A DNA stretch of 64,000 nucleotides from a virus (lineage: Duplodnaviria; Caudoviricetes): IMG/VR virus record IMGVR_UViG_3300037484_000235, positions 64,001 to 128,000 of that record. One strand, 5' to 3'. Both the position numbers and the translations under genes were made by a program. Positions 9,889 through 46,231 of this stretch are shown here, piece by piece. Each line of letters begins with the position of its first letter. Within the stretch, counting starts at the first letter, position 1. Under the pieces are notes generated by a model. That model saw nothing but the letters and a program-made list of their open reading frames with translations, was not told the origin of the DNA and ran no database searches.

Positions 9889-11466
9889 ATGAATCCTGTT
9901 CTTGATCAGCAGAGGGCGTGGGAGCTTCTTTCGAGTGGCGCCCATGAAGTTGCACGCGTCGTGTCCAAGACCTTCGGCCCTGCGGGCGGCAAGGTCATGA
10001 TAGAGAAGGCAGGGTCGGTCCTTGTAACGACTGATGGGGCCGCACTCACACGCGAGACTCAGCTTGACGGTGCGAAGAGACTGGGTGCGACCCTCATCCG
10101 ATCTGCCGCAATCAAGACCGATGAGCAAGTTGGAGATGGGACTTCCACAACGGTGATCTTGGCGGACGCTCTCATCCGGGAGATTGGAAAGAGGGCTTGT
10201 GTGCACGGCTGGGATCCGGTGTGCACGGTAGCTCAAATCCGAGAAGCTCATCTGGAGGCAGAGGGTCAGATTCAGCATATGTCCCGCCTCGCAGATCGTG
10301 AGTGTTTGGATCGGATAGCCCTCATGGCTTCCCATGAAGACCCACTCATTGCCGAGAAGGTAGTTGAGGCGGTGCTTGCAGTAGGCGAGGGCGGGTCCGT
10401 GGTGATCTCGCCCTACGAGGGGACGGGGATTGTCCTTGAGCAGAAGGCCGGACTTTATCTCAATCAAGGGTGGACCTCCTTCGATATGGCACCGGCAGAC
10501 GGATCCACCGAGCGGGAGATGGATGGGCCTCTCGTGGCCGTGTTCCGCCAAGGACTTCGACGGGTGGGTGACATTGCGACTGCGATGGAGCAAGCGAGTC
10601 AGTGGCCGGGTCGTGGTCTCGTGGTGTTTGCGCCCAGTATCCAGGGGGATGCCCTCAAGACCCTCTTGGTCAATGACAAGAAGGGCGTGCTCTCGTGTGT
10701 GGGTGTCGAGTACTCGGGGTCATCTGCGGACCTGGACGACTGGCTTGAGGACATCTCGGCAGTCACCAATTCGATGATCGTGGATACAGGGACAGGGATG
10801 TCCCCTGAGAAGTTCGAGGGGTCGTGGTTGGGTTCCGCTCGAAGAGTGACCCTGACTCGGGAACACACACTCGTCGTCTCCTACCTGGATGGGGATATTC
10901 CCCAGAAGATTGATCTGAGAGTTGCCCAGCTTCGGGCGCGAGCCGAGGTCTCCCCCTACCCCTACGAGAAGGCCAAGCTCACGGAGCGTGCTTCGGCGAT
11001 CGATGGGGGCCTCTGTACGCTGCGGATCGGTGGACTCACCAAGCAGGAGGGTCAGGACCGTCGCTCACGGGTCGAGGATGCCCTCAAGGCTGTGCAGACG
11101 TGTCTGAGGGGCGGCGTGGTTCCTGGAGCGGGCTACGCGCTGTTCAGGGCCTGTGTGTGGCTCCCTCAGACCGAGGGCGGCGTGATACTGGACAGGGCTC
11201 TCATGTCGGTCCTGGGCACGCTGGCGAGCCGGGCGGGGGCAGAGCCTCAGACCGTTTTTCGGGAGGGCATGGAGGTCACTCTGTACGATCCCGATGGGTG
11301 GTACGGGTGGGATCCACTGCTTGGGGATTGGCGAGACTTCTGGGTGACGGCCCCACGAATCGTAGACCCCACTGAAGTCGTGTTGGCAGCTCTTAGGAAT
11401 GCCGTATCCGTTGCTTGTCAGATCGCTTTGTGCGGGGTGGTCCTTGGAGTGCACCCAAAACGATAA
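9889..11466 (+). CDS. groEL: GroEL-like chaperonin (divergent)
   Basis: KTFGP.G; TTDG; VGDGTSTT; LRIGG.T; RVEDAL.A; GGVVPGAG; IVDPTEV...AL.NA.SVA. Confidence 0.9.
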   Translation: MNPVLDQQRAWELLSSGAHEVARVVSKTFGPAGGKVMIEKAGSVLVTTDGAALTRETQLDGAKRLGATLIRSAAIKTDEQVGDGTSTTVILADALIREIGKRACVHGWDPVCTVAQIREAHLEAEGQIQHMSRLADRECLDRIALMASHEDPLIAEKVVEAVLAVGEGGSVVISPYEGTGIVLEQKAGLYLNQGWTSFDMAPADGSTEREMDGPLVAVFRQGLRRVGDIATAMEQASQWPGRGLVVFAPSIQGDALKTLLVNDKKGVLSCVGVEYSGSSADLDDWLEDISAVTNSMIVDTGTGMSPEKFEGSWLGSARRVTLTREHTLVVSYLDGDIPQKIDLRVAQLRARAEVSPYPYEKAKLTERASAIDGGLCTLRIGGLTKQEGQDRRSRVEDALKAVQTCLRGGVVPGAGYALFRACVWLPQTEGGVILDRALMSVLGTLASRAGAEPQTVFREGMEVTLYDPDGWYGWDPLLGDWRDFWVTAPRIVDPTEVVLAALRNAVSVACQIALCGVVLGVHPKR

Positions 11467-39922: not shown

Positions 39923-39925
39923 CTA

Positions 39926-40057
39926 GGGCAGATGCGGTGAGGACTACATAACAGGAACTCGGGGTCGCTGGTTCAAGTCCAGCCTGCCATCCTGGATGGC
40001 AGTAGCTCAGTCTGGTAGAGCACGAGTAAAAACCAATCTTCGCTAACCTTGCTGCCC
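39926..40057 (+). ncRNA. yrlA: YrlA-type Y RNA (circularly permuted class I tRNA module)
   Basis: order AC-3' strand, V loop GGGTC, T arm, loop-closed acceptor, D arm, AC-5' strand; outer GGGCAG/CTGCCC. Confidence 0.85.
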
Positions 40058-40066
40058 GAACTTTAT

Positions 40067-40740: not shown

Positions 40741-41322
40741 ATGCTAGACACAGATCACCCTGAGGAAATTGTTTCCTCATCTTGGGATGGCCGTCCTCGA
40801 AGACTTGTTGCCAATCTTTGTGGTCATTGTCATGGCAGGTTCTTTGCCCCGAGACACACAACTGCAAAGTTCTGTTCTAAGACATGCTCCGACGAGTCAC
40901 AGAAGAACAAGACCGTTCTTGTTTGTGCCCAATGTAAAAGGTCTTTTGAGCGTGTTCCCAGTACCTTGAAGAACTCCCGGAGTGGGGTGAGATTCTGTCA
41001 GAGATCCTGTAAGGATGAGGCTCAAAGACTTGAGGGTCTCAAGGCCATACACCCTTCTCACTACGGGAGTGACATCACCCACAAGAAAGCTCTGATTAGG
41101 GATAGGGGACACAAGTGCGAGGTGTGTGGTTTCTCTCGGTGGCAAGGCAAGCCAATATCTCTGCACGTCGATCATGTCGACGGAAACCCTTATGACCACT
41201 CCCTAAGCAACCTTCGATTGATCTGTCCAAACTGTCATACCCAGACGCCAACTTATGGCGGCAGGAATAGAGGAAGGGGGAGAAAGTCGCGAAAGCTTCC
41301 GGATTGGAGTGACGTGAGGTGA
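40741..41322 (+). CDS. HNH endonuclease with N-terminal treble-clef Zn motifs
   Basis: CEVCG..W.G..ISLHVDHVDG...D....NLRLICPNCH.QT.TY. Confidence 0.9.
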   Translation: MLDTDHPEEIVSSSWDGRPRRLVANLCGHCHGRFFAPRHTTAKFCSKTCSDESQKNKTVLVCAQCKRSFERVPSTLKNSRSGVRFCQRSCKDEAQRLEGLKAIHPSHYGSDITHKKALIRDRGHKCEVCGFSRWQGKPISLHVDHVDGNPYDHSLSNLRLICPNCHTQTPTYGGRNRGRGRKSRKLPDWSDVR

Positions 41323-41407: not shown

Positions 41408-41541
41408 GTGTTGTGGAAATACTCGATGGGGATTACATTACCTGCTAAGTAATCGATCTGGGTTCGACTCCCAGGCGCTCCCGTAAGGGGGCGAGCCAGG
41501 GGCTAGAAAAACATCTCTGTCATCACTTGTTTCACAGCACT
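41407..41541 (+). ncRNA. permuted tRNA-mimic Y-like RNA retaining a GCU anticodon arm
   Basis: 12-bp outer stem; GATTACAT; AC arm, T arm, GTAA-closed acceptor, D-like hairpin. Confidence 0.7.
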
Positions 41542-41551
41542 ACTTCTTTTC

Positions 41552-41692
41552 GTGGTGAATACCGCAGTGACTACATGGAAAACGGTTGCCGAAAGGCGTG
41601 TGGGCTTCGATACCCACCTCAGCCTCGCAAGGGCTGAGTGGCGGAATGGCAGACGCGACTGCAAATGTCACTGTGACCCCTCTTGTCACCAC
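41552..41692 (+). ncRNA. permuted tRNA-Leu-like (class II) Y-like RNA
   Basis: V arm GCCGAAAGGC, T arm, closed acceptor, Leu D arm; outer stems of 9 and 7 bp; GACTACAT. Confidence 0.8.
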
Positions 41693-41833
41693 ACTAACTT
41701 CGCATGGGCCCTACGGGGTCCATGTGCAGACGGGTCTCGTAGGTCGCGCCAGGCCCTACGAGCTGGAAGATAGGGGACGCCACCCGCGAAAGCGATCAGC
41801 GGCCCCGAGTCCTGTCCGTGTTCCTGGTATTCT

Positions 41834-41906
41834 GGGGCTGTAGCTCAGTTGGGAGAGCGTCTCCATGGCATGGAGAAGGTCAAGGGTTCGATTCCCTTCA
41901 GCTCCA
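41834..41906 (+). tRNA. tRNA-Ala(GGC)
   Basis: loop AT-GGC-AT; ends ACCG. Confidence 0.9.
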
Positions 41907-42144: not shown

Positions 42145-42240
42145 GGTGTAGGATTGCTAATCGGTAGGCAGGGAGGCTACAGGCTGACGAGCCTGGTACG
42201 GCCACCCGTATTGCAGGTTCAACTCCTGCCCAGCACCCCG
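42145..42240 (+). ncRNA. tRNA-like RNA with elongated anticodon arm capped by GACG
   Basis: 8-bp acceptor with one mismatch, D arm, canonical T arm. Confidence 0.55.
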
Positions 42241-45764: not shown

Positions 45765-45849
45765 GTGAGAGTGGTGGAATGGCAGTCACGCTGGGCTAAG
45801 GACCCAGTGCCCCCAACGGGGCGTGCGGGTTCGACTCCCGCCTTTCACA
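45765..45849 (+). tRNA. tRNA-Leu(AAG)
   Basis: stem CTGGG/CCCAG, loop CT-AAG-GA, long V arm, A73. Confidence 0.88.
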
Positions 45850-45867
45850 CAAAGTGCAGTGCAACAT

Positions 45868-45955
45868 GCTGGGGTGGCGAAATGGCAGACGCACCAGGTT
45901 CAGAACCTGGCGGGGTTTAAACCTCATGGGGGTTCAAGTCCCCCCCTCAGCACCA
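45868..45955 (+). tRNA. tRNA-Leu(CAG)
   Basis: loop TT-CAG-AA, V arm, ACCA. Confidence 0.92.
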
Positions 45956-45967
45956 AAGAGTACACAT

Positions 45968-46052
45968 GCAAGATTGGCGAAACTGGCAGACGCTACGGGC
46001 TGAGAGTCCGTCGGGTAATACCGTGAGGGTTCGACTCCCTCATCTTGCACCA
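45968..46052 (+). tRNA. tRNA-Leu(GAG)
   Basis: loop CT-GAG-AG, V arm, ACCA. Confidence 0.92.
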
Positions 46053-46059
46053 GTAGTGA

Positions 46060-46135
46060 GGGAGCGTAGCCCAACGGCAGAGGCAGTGCATTTAGGGTGC
46101 ACTCAGTGTGGGTTCGAATCCCACCGTTCCTACCA
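46060..46135 (+). tRNA. tRNA-Leu(TAG), short variable loop
   Basis: loop TT-TAG-GG, 5-nt V loop, ACCA. Confidence 0.88.
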
Positions 46136-46138
46136 AAT

Positions 46139-46223
46139 GCCCCGGTGGCGAAACGGCAAACGCGGTGGATTTAAAATCCGCTGCCGAAAGGTGTTGCGGG
46201 TTCGACTCCCGCTCGGGGCACCA
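46139..46223 (+). tRNA. tRNA-Leu(TAA)
   Basis: loop TT-TAA-AA, V arm, ACCA. Confidence 0.92.
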
Positions 46224-46231
46224 AGATGTAT

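What the first reader, a model, noticed from the sequence alone, without database searches (positions are those of the whole stretch)
41552..41692. Permuted tRNA mimic built from a class II (Leu) tRNA with a long variable arm
Arm order: CGGTT, V arm GCC-GAAA-GGC, T arm GTGGG-CTTCGATA-CCCAC, closed acceptor CTCAGCC-TCGCAAG-GGCTGAG, D arm TGGCGGAATGGCAGACGC, GACTG. The D arm is identical to that of tRNA-Leu(CAA) at 46239-46256 and the V arm matches tRNA-Leu(TAA), suggesting recent origin from the phage's own Leu tRNAs. Outer stems are CGCAGTGAC/GTCACTGTG and GTGGTGA/TCACCAC, with GACTACAT in between. The YrlA modules I know are class I-like, so a Leu-type effector may be new and could engage LeuRS or Leu-tRNA-specific enzymes.
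Basis: partly seen in the sequence, partly recalled or inferred. Interest (0 to 1): 0.85.

Follow-up and report, generated by a model that had tools for sequence, protein, structure and literature searches.

The report
Phage Y RNA mimicking leucine tRNA
This 141-base stretch of a giant phage is a Y RNA, a small RNA partner of the Ro60 protein, whose built-in tRNA look-alike copies a leucine tRNA with its extra arm; the same type recurs in other phages and in bacterial RNA-repair loci, but the public YrlA model misses it.

Summary

The RNA at 41552-41692 (+) belongs to the YrlA family of Y RNAs. Its Ro60-type stem carries GAAUAC, GACUACAU and CUUGUC. That stem encloses a circularly permuted, anticodon-less tRNA body in this order: V hairpin, T arm, closed acceptor, tRNA-Leu-type D arm. 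A Ro60 gene lies 8 kb downstream on the same strand.

It is not a one-off. I found the same Leu-type design in at least 11 other IMG/VR phage contigs and in the rsr (Ro60) loci of Verrucomicrobiota, Acidobacteriota and Gammaproteobacteria, beside canonical YrlA genes. A covariance model built from 14 such members, without the window, scores the candidate 137.8 bits. The window's canonical YrlA scores 46.6.

Rfam YrlA gives the candidate no hit and gives its relatives 28-45 bits against a cut-off of 69.

- "Recent origin from the phage's own Leu tRNAs" is not supported. The same D arm occurs in distant phages and in bacteria.
- LeuRS charging is unlikely, because there is no free 3' end and no A73.

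Published work has already noted class II-like long variable loops in YrlA RNAs.

Verdict: a real new member of a little-described Leu-type YrlA variant. Its function is inferred, not shown.

The parts
41552..41562 (+). Outer stem 5' strand GUGGUGA (41552-41558) plus the AUAC bulge. GGUGAAUAC is the variant of the GNCGAAN0-1G Ro60-binding motif.
   Evidence: It pairs with 41686-41692 in the MFE. In helix 1, 6 of 7 pairs covary.
41563..41582 (+). Inner stem 5' strand CGCAGUGAC, then the conserved (GA)CUACAU and an A-rich linker. This holds the YUAY motif of YrlA.
   Evidence: GACUACAU is invariant in the window's YrlA, the Mx1 YrlA and the candidate. In helix 2, 7 of 9 pairs covary.
41583..41586 (+). 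3' strand (CGGU) of the 4-bp helix that stands for the top of the anticodon stem. It pairs with ACUG at 41658-41661.
   Evidence: (helix 3: 3 of 4 pairs covary).
41587..41599 (+). Class II-type variable arm U-GCC-GAAA-GGC-G, then U48, the Levitt partner of A15.
   Evidence: All 3 modelled pairs of the V stem covary. U48 is conserved in the family consensus.
41600..41617 (+). T arm GUGGG-CUUCGAUA-CCCAC. The loop has 8 nt, one extra C before U54.
   Evidence: the extra C is treated as an insertion relative to 14 relatives. In helix 5, 3 of 5 pairs covary.
41618..41638 (+). Acceptor stem closed into a hairpin, CUCAGCC-UCGCAAG-GGCUGAG. There is no CCA and no free end.
   Evidence: All 7 pairs covary. 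The nearest relative, L178, has the same loop UCGCAAG on a wholly different stem.
41639..41657 (+). U8-G9, then the tRNA-Leu-type D arm GCG-GAAUGGCAGA-CGC (3-bp stem), then G26.
   Evidence: identical to tRNA-Leu(CAA) at 46239-46256; best match tRNA-Leu 22, against <=13 for any other identity. GUGGCGGAAUGGuAGACGC is the family consensus.
41658..41666 (+). ACUG, the 5' strand of the anticodon-stem stub, plus the CAAAU linker. No anticodon loop exists.
41667..41692 (+). Inner stem 3' strand GUCACUGUG, the ACCCCUCUUG internal loop (CUUGUC motif) and the outer stem 3' strand UCACCAC.
49692..51359 (+). Ro60 (TROVE + Ro60 vWA) gene, the presumed protein partner.
   Evidence: PF25045 7.7e-18; PF05731 2.1e-07; 45% identical to Myxococcus phage Mx1 Ro60.
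39925..40061 (+). Canonical class I-type YrlA paralog of the same phage.
   Evidence: Rfam YrlA 59 bits, E 2e-13, below the cut-off of 69. R2 gives it 46.6 bits.
41410..41538 (+). Third Y-like RNA, directly upstream. It has a Y stem, T arm, closed acceptor and a degenerate D hairpin.
   Evidence: R2 40.8 bits. Orthologs at L012:2515-2638 and L024:9310-9432.

Best explanation
Window 41552-41692 (+) encodes a non-coding Y RNA of the YrlA family. It belongs to a conserved subfamily whose tRNA-like module copies tRNA-Leu, a class II tRNA.

Shown from sequence and comparison:
- The 5' and 3' ends pair into a two-part stem carrying the family's Ro60-site motifs.
- The stem encloses a circularly permuted tRNA body: a 4-bp anticodon-stem stub, a V hairpin, a T arm, an acceptor closed by a loop, and a Leu-type D arm with U8, A14, A15:U48 and G18G19.
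- There is no anticodon loop and no 3' end.
- The design covaries across phages and bacteria and sits in Ro60 loci beside canonical YrlA.

Inferred:
- It is cut out of the polycistronic tRNA/Y-RNA transcript.
- Its stem binds the phage Ro60 encoded 8 kb downstream.
- Its L-shaped body with the protruding V arm engages a factor that reads the body of tRNA-Leu (elbow, D arm, V arm) rather than its anticodon or 3' end. It would either tether that factor to Ro60 or compete with tRNA-Leu for it. Candidates are an exoribonuclease such as PNPase, a tRNA-processing or repair enzyme, or a tRNA-cleaving nuclease.
- Because it keeps tRNA-Leu identity next to a generic YrlA in the same loci, it probably serves class II tRNA-specific surveillance or protection.
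For: Family membership:
- It shares the Y stem motifs GAAUrC, GACUACAU, CAAA and UUGUC with the window's canonical YrlA and with the Mx1 YrlA.
- R1, built from the candidate alone, finds Y RNAs in Ro60-encoding relatives.
- R2, built from 14 Leu-type members without the window, scores it 137.8 bits. The canonical YrlA scores 46.6 and tandem tRNA-Leu junctions score 40.

Structure:
- 95.5% of cells pair and 30 of 38 pairs change on both sides. Slid controls reach at most 51%.
- ARAGORN draws a class II cloverleaf after de-permutation.

Leu identity:
- The D-arm region scores 22 against tRNA-Leu and at most 13 against any other identity. Canonical YrlAs match many class I tRNAs about equally.

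Context:
- A Ro60 gene lies on the same strand.
- Ro60 is present in 6 of 10 phage records that carry a Leu-type Y RNA, including 3 of the 4 near-complete ones.
- Bacterial members lie inside rsr loci next to canonical YrlAs and to rtcB/rtcA or rtcR/RlaP.
- No local promoter or terminator was found, which fits array transcription.

Literature:
- YrlA binds Rsr, is handled by tRNA enzymes and folds like tRNA (PMC4201824; 10.1101/312249).
- A phage Ro60 with its Y RNAs binds host PNPase (PMC12135203).
- YrlA has been proposed as a competitive inhibitor of an anticodon nuclease (PMC7790460).
Against: - There is no expression or binding data, and no sequencing run holds the stretch.
- The T loop has one extra nucleotide, unique among 14+ members, which could weaken the elbow.
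- The 5' motif is GGUGAAUA rather than GNCGAAN0-1G.
- The gene lies 8 kb from Ro60, beyond the 4-kb rule of Chen et al. 2014.
- The five closest relatives lack a Leu-type member, so it is dispensable in that clade.
- One near-complete phage (G012, L202) has a Leu-type module but no detectable Ro60.
- The covariation counts come from an alignment fitted to the model.
- The effector is unknown.
Confidence: 0.72

Rival explanations
1. It is a decaying or non-functional copy. On this reading a Leu-type Y RNA gene was acquired or duplicated, its T loop has since been damaged by a 1-nt insertion, and the RNA no longer folds or acts.
For: - The 8-nt T loop is unique among all relatives.
- The five nearest relatives lack the gene.
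- Rfam YrlA gives no hit at all, while relatives get 28-45 bits.
Against: - Every helix is intact: 7 + 9 + 4 + 4 + 5 + 7 + 3 bp.
- The D arm is perfect.
- It scores 137.8 bits against a family model built without it.
- The single extra base could also be an assembly error.
Confidence: 0.1
2. It is a precursor of a chargeable tRNA-Leu-like RNA. RNase P would cut the closed acceptor loop and CCA would be added, as reported for M. smegmatis YrlA. The RNA could then be bound or charged by LeuRS, or used by L/F-transferase.
For: [quoted passage not shown]
- The phage record encodes a CCA-adding-type nucleotidyltransferase.
- The tertiary elements A15:U48, U8:A14 and G18G19, known from E. coli LeuRS recognition (my own knowledge), are present.
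Against: - The base after the acceptor 3' strand is U here and varies among relatives (U, C, G), so A73 is not kept.
- The acceptor loops are short and varied, with no encoded CCA.
- Nothing here tests cleavage.
Confidence: 0.08
3. It is a free decoy that works without Ro60. The tRNA-Leu body alone would soak up a host tRNA-Leu-directed nuclease or other defence factor, and the Y stem would serve only as a stabilising clamp.
For: - A near-complete phage (G012, L202) has a Leu-type module without typical Y-stem motifs and without detectable Ro60.
- The decoy idea for YrlA is published (PMC7790460).
Against: - The Ro60-site motifs of the stem are conserved in the candidate and in most members.
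- Most members co-occur with Ro60, and in bacteria they lie inside rsr loci.
Confidence: 0.08
4. It is a chance product or false positive: the junction of two tandem or degraded tRNA-Leu genes, with the T arm from the first and the D arm from the second. Chen et al. 2014 warned about this artefact.
For: - The models also hit real tandem tRNA-Leu junctions at 46171-46266 and 45807-45894, but at only about 40 bits.
- The V arm resembles tRNA-Leu(TAA) and the D arm resembles the adjacent tRNA-Leu(CAA).
Against: - ARAGORN finds no tRNA here.
- The two acceptor halves are complementary to each other and joined by a 7-nt loop with no CCA or spacer.
- No anticodon loops flank the module.
- The Y-stem motifs and their covariation are present.
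- The score is about 98 bits above real junctions.
Confidence: 0.02

Closest known systems
YrlA (Rfam RF02553; Chen et al. 2014, RNA 20:1715, PMC4201824; structure in Wang et al. 2018, 10.1101/312249)
   Same: - A 5'/3' stem with a Ro60 (Rsr) site and the YUAY motif.
- A permuted tRNA-like module in the order T arm, closed acceptor, D arm, with no anticodon loop.
- Encoded on the same strand as a Ro60 gene.
- Occurs in phages as well as bacteria.
- Long variable loops 'characteristic of class II tRNAs' are already noted for many YrlAs.
   Different: - The D arm is tRNA-Leu-type (U8-G9, 3-bp GCG/CGC stem, 10-nt loop). The near-invariant YrlA arm has UA and GCUC/GAGC.
- It has a discrete V hairpin with a GAAA loop next to the T arm.
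- The Rfam model gives no hit here and 28-45 bits for relatives, against a cut-off of 69.
- It lies 8 kb rather than under 4 kb from Ro60.
- The T loop has 8 nt.
Leu-type Y RNAs found here. Phage examples: L178:2067-2206, L042:6033-6182, L041:2332-2482, L036:3822-3973, L056:6409-6559, L032, L033. Bacterial examples: Haloferula L293:2096-2235, Acidobacteriota L315:5173-5313, Gammaproteobacteria L282:3899-4037.
   Same: - The whole architecture and the D-arm sequence.
- L178 even shares the acceptor loop UCGCAAG on a fully covaried stem.
- The family model scores the candidate 137.8 bits.
   Different: - Many relatives carry an extra GNRA hairpin between the D arm side and the inner stem, which the candidate lacks.
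- All relatives have a 7-nt T loop.
- In four phages the gene starts 0-2 nt after a tRNA-Leu gene. Here it follows another Y-like RNA.
Class II tRNA-Leu, including the phage's own six genes at 45765-46317
   Same: The D arm is 18 of 18 identical to tRNA-Leu(CAA). The V hairpin, the T arm, the 7-bp acceptor helix, A15:U48 and G18G19 are all present.
   Different: The order is circularly permuted. The anticodon loop and lower anticodon stem are absent. The acceptor is closed, with no CCA and no A73. It cannot decode.
Thermus phage phiLo Yrl1/Yrl2 with phage Ro60 (PMC12135203)
   Same: Phage-encoded Y-like RNAs lie upstream of a phage Ro60. That study showed Ro60 binding and ternary complexes with host PNPase.
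   Different: As far as the text I read shows, those RNAs are described as stem-bulge-stem Y RNAs with a CGAA motif, and a tRNA-Leu-like module is not mentioned. The window's Ro60 is only about 24.5% identical to the phiLo protein.

Membership tests
YrlA (Chen et al. 2014 / Rfam RF02553) | The 5' and 3' ends pair into a stem that carries the Ro60-site motif GNCGAAN0-1G near the 5' end. | tested here: inconclusive
   The stem forms and covaries. The motif reads GGUGAAUA: C is replaced by U, with a compensating A on the 3' strand, and the trailing G is replaced by A. The GAAUAC variant recurs in other Y RNAs of this phage clade. Binding itself was not tested.
YrlA (Chen et al. 2014 / Rfam RF02553) | A conserved YUAY lies between the stem and the tRNA-like module. 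| tested here: met
   CUAC lies within GACUACAU at 41569-41576, which is invariant in alignment A1.
YrlA (Chen et al. 2014 / Rfam RF02553) | A tRNA-like module in the order T arm, closed acceptor stem-loop, D arm, with no anticodon loop. | tested here: met
YrlA (Chen et al. 2014 / Rfam RF02553) | Near-invariant D and T stem sequences and the UA linker (GUAGCUCA..GGUAGAGC). | tested here: not met
   The D arm is UG-GCG-GAAUGGCAGA-CGC, which is tRNA-Leu-type. The T loop has 8 nt.
YrlA (Chen et al. 2014 / Rfam RF02553) | Scores at or above the Rfam gathering threshold of 69 bits. | tested here: not met
   There is no YrlA hit at E<=10 in 1.4-kb and 191-nt searches. Relatives score 28-45 bits.
YrlA (Chen et al. 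2014 / Rfam RF02553) | Encoded within about 4 kb of the Ro60 gene on the same strand. | tested here: not met
   It is on the same strand, but its 3' end is 8.0 kb upstream of the Ro60 start at 49692, inside the same tRNA island.
YrlA (Chen et al. 2014 / Rfam RF02553) | Bound by Ro60/Rsr in vivo or in vitro. | not testable with these tools
   This needs EMSA or RIP.
Leu-type Y RNA subfamily (defined here by model R2) | Y stem, 4-bp stub, V hairpin, T arm, closed acceptor and a D arm of the form GUGGYGRAAYGGYAGACRC, scored by a covariance model built without the candidate. | tested here: met
   137.8 bits, E 1.3e-38, full length 1-140. It is the only such copy in the 252-kb record.
Functional class II tRNA-Leu | An anticodon arm with a Leu anticodon, a free acceptor end with A73-CCA, and normal 5'-to-3' arm order. 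| tested here: not met
   ARAGORN and Rfam tRNA find nothing here. The acceptor is closed and the arm order is permuted.
Permuted tRNA genes (the kind processed through a circular intermediate, as in red algae; my own knowledge) | The 3' half lies upstream of the 5' half, and both halves together hold a complete tRNA including the anticodon loop. | tested here: not met
   No anticodon loop exists. The stub continues into the Y stem.

The most novel reading that the evidence does not exclude
Y RNAs may come in tRNA-identity-specific forms. On this reading the Leu-type form is an old, separately conserved paralog. It sits beside the generic YrlA in rsr-rtcBA RNA-repair loci of several bacterial phyla and in jumbo-phage tRNA islands. 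It has gone unannotated because it scores below the Rfam cut-off. It would act as a tRNA-Leu/class II-specific tether or decoy, for example against nucleases or sensors that read the body of class II tRNAs. A Tyr-like module at L022:11753-11896 hints at further forms.
Probability: 0.4. Interest if true: 0.65.

Novelty: new variant of a known kind. Interest (0 to 1): 0.5.

Why it matters
The tRNA-like module of YrlA is thought to be the effector-binding part of bacterial Ro60 RNPs, yet the effector is still unknown. [quoted passage not shown]

A second, conserved module type keeps tRNA-Leu identity and co-occurs with the generic YrlA in the same loci. That suggests at least two distinct partners or targets, and it gives a natural swap experiment: a Leu-type module against a generic one on the same stem.

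For phages, it adds a specific element to the link between large tRNA arrays, Ro60, and defence against or repair of tRNA damage.

In practice, current Rfam-based annotation misses this subfamily, so censuses of Y RNAs undercount them.

Tried and rejected
- Nucleotide searches of the region against GenBank phages found nothing, in both near and distant modes.
- Rfam at gathering and at permissive thresholds gave no YrlA hit for the candidate.
- nhmmer and blastn of the candidate against related loci mostly picked up D arms of Leu tRNAs. Only the Mx1 YrlA was informative.
- MAFFT alignments A4 and A5 put the acceptor 5' strand and the candidate's T stem out of register, so I did not use them for pair counts. 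I used model-guided alignments instead, and these lean towards the model.
They did show that the D arm GUGGUGUAAYGGYAGCAC of L034, L037b and L038 is Gln-like, not Leu-like, so I removed those from the Leu-type set.
- The genome-wide pattern scan gave 53 stretches, of which only 6 were real by the covariance model.
- No sequencing run holds the stretch; the best share was 0.18. I therefore laid no reads, have no expression evidence, and could not check the extra C in the T loop.
- The supplements of Chen et al. 2014 and the two Sim/Wolin reviews are not held. I could not check whether individual Leu-type members were already listed there.
- I looked for RNA-repair genes beside the island. There is no RtcB in the 252-kb record, and the neighbouring ORFs are replication or nucleotide-metabolism genes or have no family.
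- A protein-coding reading of the overlapping ORFs 41552-41773 and 41586-41843 was rejected. There is no family evidence, and the RNA model explains the whole stretch.

Full report
**Setting**

The window is part of a 252.5-kb IMG/VR virus record. It holds a + strand island of 46 tRNA genes between 38.3 and 53 kb. Inside the island, ORF 49692-51359 (+) is a Ro60 protein, with a Ro60 vWA hit at 7.7e-18 and a TROVE hit at 2.1e-07. Its nearest named relative is the Ro60 of Myxococcus phage Mx1, at 45% identity. Rfam finds a canonical YrlA at 39925-40061, scoring 59 bits with E 2e-13, which is below the curated cut-off of 69.

The D arm TGGCGGAATGGCAGACGC is identical to 46239-46256 of tRNA-Leu(CAA). 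TGCCGAAAGG is shared with tRNA-Leu(TAA). The MFE fold gives both outer stems and the V, T and acceptor hairpins, although the z-score is only -2.0.

When the two halves are put back in tRNA order with a borrowed anticodon loop, ARAGORN draws a class II cloverleaf with a 4-bp V arm. In place, neither ARAGORN nor Rfam tRNA calls a tRNA here.

One deviation is worth noting. The T loop has 8 nt (CUUCGAUA), while every relative found has 7 nt.

**It is a Y RNA of the YrlA family**

The candidate, the window's canonical YrlA and a YrlA I found in phage Mx1 (L001:3256-3380) share the stem signature. That signature is GAAUrC after the outer stem, an invariant GACUACAU, then CAAA and UUGUC on the 3' side.

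A covariance model of the candidate alone (R1) recovered Y-like RNAs in most Ro60-encoding relatives. It also recovered a third Y-like RNA just upstream, at 41410-41538. The Rfam YrlA model itself gives the candidate no hit, even at E<=10 in a 191-nt search.

**The Leu-type module is a recurrent, conserved design**

Pattern scans of IMG/VR, filtered with R1, found the same architecture in eleven phage loci:
- L178:2067-2206
- L042:6033-6182
- L041:2332-2482
- L033:7561-7715
- L032:8376-8530
- L036:3822-3973
- L037:167-317
- L056:6409-6559
- L207:2490-2614
- L202:4540-4662
- L161 (about 2381-2475)

That architecture is a Y stem, a 4-bp stub, a V hairpin, a T arm, a closed acceptor and a D arm of the form GUGGYGRAAYGGYAGACRC. 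These contigs span 37-68% GC and reach 424 kb.

L178 is the closest. It scores 86.9 bits with R1 and has the same acceptor loop UCGCAAG on a completely different, still complementary stem.

A scan of one genome per prokaryotic species found the design in six bacterial genomes:
- Haloferula sp. (L293:2096-2235)
- an Akkermansiaceae MAG (L289)
- a Verrucomicrobiaceae MAG (L300)
- an Acidobacteriota MAG (L315:5173-5313)
- a Pyrinomonadaceae MAG (L326)
- a Gammaproteobacteria MAG (L282:3899-4037)

They lie inside Ro60 loci next to canonical YrlA genes:
- L293: rsr, six Y RNAs, DUF6714, rtcB, rtcA.
- L282: rtcR, then rsr, YrlA, YrlA, the Leu-type RNA, and RlaP further on.
- L315: several Y RNAs, then rsr.

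In those loci Rfam gives the canonical copies 69-79 bits and the Leu-type copies only 28-45 bits.

**Tests of structure and membership**

On 13 Leu-type sequences, 95.5% of cells form standard pairs, against 66.7% in shuffles. Thirty of 38 pairs change on both sides. Sliding the partners by 1-3 columns drops pairing to 37-51%.

By helix, the numbers of covarying pairs are:

| Helix | Pairs that covary |
|---|---|
| Outer stem | 6 of 7 |
| Inner stem | 7 of 9 |
| Anticodon-stem stub | 3 of 4 |
| V stem | 3 of 3 |
| T stem | 3 of 5 |
| Acceptor | 7 of 7 |

The alignment was fitted to the model, so these numbers lean towards the structure. The acceptor and V-stem changes are nonetheless plain by eye.

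A second model, R2, was built from 14 Leu-type members and excluded the window. It scores the candidate 137.8 bits (E 1e-38). The same model gives 46.6 bits to the window's canonical YrlA, 40.8 to the upstream Y-like RNA, and about 40 to real tandem tRNA-Leu junctions.

The D-arm region matches tRNA-Leu with a score of 22, against at most 13 for any other identity. Canonical YrlAs match many class I tRNAs about equally. The family consensus keeps U8, A14, A15, G18G19 and U48.

- The identity with the phage's own tRNA-Leu(CAA) D arm is not specific. The same 18-mer is present in Leu tRNAs and in Leu-type Y RNAs of distant phages, and near-identical arms occur in bacteria. The five nearest relatives (Ro60 71-83% identical) have no Leu-type member in their records; their best R2 score is 59.7 bits, from class I YrlAs. 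The distribution is patchy, and I cannot tell gain, loss or module exchange apart. The candidate's inner stem is almost the same as that of the class I-like Mx1 YrlA, which hints at module exchange.
- The class II likeness is not wholly new. Wang et al. 2018 state that many YrlAs have long variable loops characteristic of class II tRNAs and superimposed a class II tRNA on the YrlA structure. In the texts I could read, nobody describes a tRNA-Leu-type D arm. It departs from the 'nearly invariant' YrlA D stem and UA linker.
- LeuRS charging is unlikely. The acceptor is closed, there is no CCA, and the position after the acceptor 3' strand is U here and varies among relatives.

**Likely working**

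Shown: the RNA's architecture, its conservation, and its linkage with Ro60. Ro60 is present in 6 of 10 phage records that carry the design, including 3 of the 4 near-complete ones.

Inferred:
- It is released from the array transcript. No local promoter or terminator was found. In relatives the gene starts 0-5 nt after a tRNA, and in four phages that tRNA is a tRNA-Leu.
- Ro60 binds it through the stem.
- A tRNA-Leu-shaped body is presented to a factor that reads the elbow, D arm and V arm.

Published precedents bear on the possible partner. YrlA is handled by tRNA enzymes (PMC4201824). Y RNAs tether Ro60 to PNPase, including in a phage system (PMC12135203). YrlA has been suggested to compete with an anticodon nuclease (PMC7790460). 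Which of these applies here is open.

The phage record has no RtcB but does have a CCA-adding-type enzyme.

**Verdict**

It is a new member of a conserved Leu-type variant of YrlA that current annotation misses. It is neither unique to this phage nor recently derived from its tRNAs. Earlier notes of this scan on the same genome had listed several Y-like RNAs in the island. I confirmed the three that carry a tRNA-like module.

Noticed in passing
window 41410-41538 (+): A third Y-like RNA lies directly upstream of the candidate. It has the Y stem motifs AAAUAC and GAUUACAU, a T arm, a GNRA-closed acceptor and only a small D-like hairpin. Orthologs are at L012:2515-2638 and L024:9310-9432.
   Followed up: partly
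window 39925-40061 (+): The phage's canonical YrlA scores 59 bits, below the Rfam cut-off of 69. All phage YrlAs seen here fell below that cut-off, so gathering-threshold annotation misses them.
   Followed up: yes
L022:11753-11896 (+): This Y RNA has a long V hairpin and a D loop reading CGAGCGGCCAAAG. From memory, that resembles bacterial tRNA-Tyr, which is also class II. It may be a second identity-specific module type.
   Followed up: partly
L293:935-2235 (Haloferula sp. BvORR071): Six tandem Y RNAs lie between rsr and rtcB/rtcA in a bacterial chromosome. Three score at or above the Rfam cut-off. The last one is the Leu-type.
   Followed up: partly
L036:3738-3973, L037:2695-2914, L041:2332-2568, L042:6033-6270: In four phages a Y RNA starts 0-2 nt after a tRNA-Leu gene. 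Three of these Y RNAs are Leu-type and the L037 one is the Gln-like type. In L178, L056 and L207 the Leu-type Y RNA starts 0-5 nt after tRNA-Gly, tRNA-Pro or tRNA-Asp. This suggests that tRNA 3' processing makes the Y RNA 5' end.
   Followed up: partly
L034:10151-10224 (-): ARAGORN calls a 'tRNA-Ile(gat)' inside a permuted Y RNA (10088-10227). Permuted modules can therefore produce false tRNA calls.
   Followed up: no
L202:4540-4662 (record G012, 244.7 kb, 96% complete): A Leu-type permuted module occurs in a 37% GC phage. It lacks the usual Y-stem motifs, and no Ro60 homolog was detected at E<=1e-5.
   Followed up: partly
window 40741-41322, 46417-46947, 47580-47966 (+): Three HNH endonuclease ORFs are interspersed in the tRNA island.
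   Followed up: partly
window 47260-47343, 48992-49076, 42145-42237, 49200-49300 (+): Weak sub-threshold Rfam hits to tRNA-Sec and tmRNA fall in spacers of the island where ARAGORN calls no tRNA. These may be further odd tRNA-like RNAs.
   Followed up: no
window 41693-41833 (+): The GC-rich spacer between the candidate and tRNA-Ala(GGC) folds into several hairpins (-60 kcal/mol, z -1.9). It matches no family.
   Followed up: partly
G009:39002-40648 and G010:112785-114206: The Ro60 matches in two jumbo-phage records are read through one in-frame stop each, TAG in one and TGA in the other. I did not examine whether this is a boundary effect, a break or recoding.
   Followed up: no
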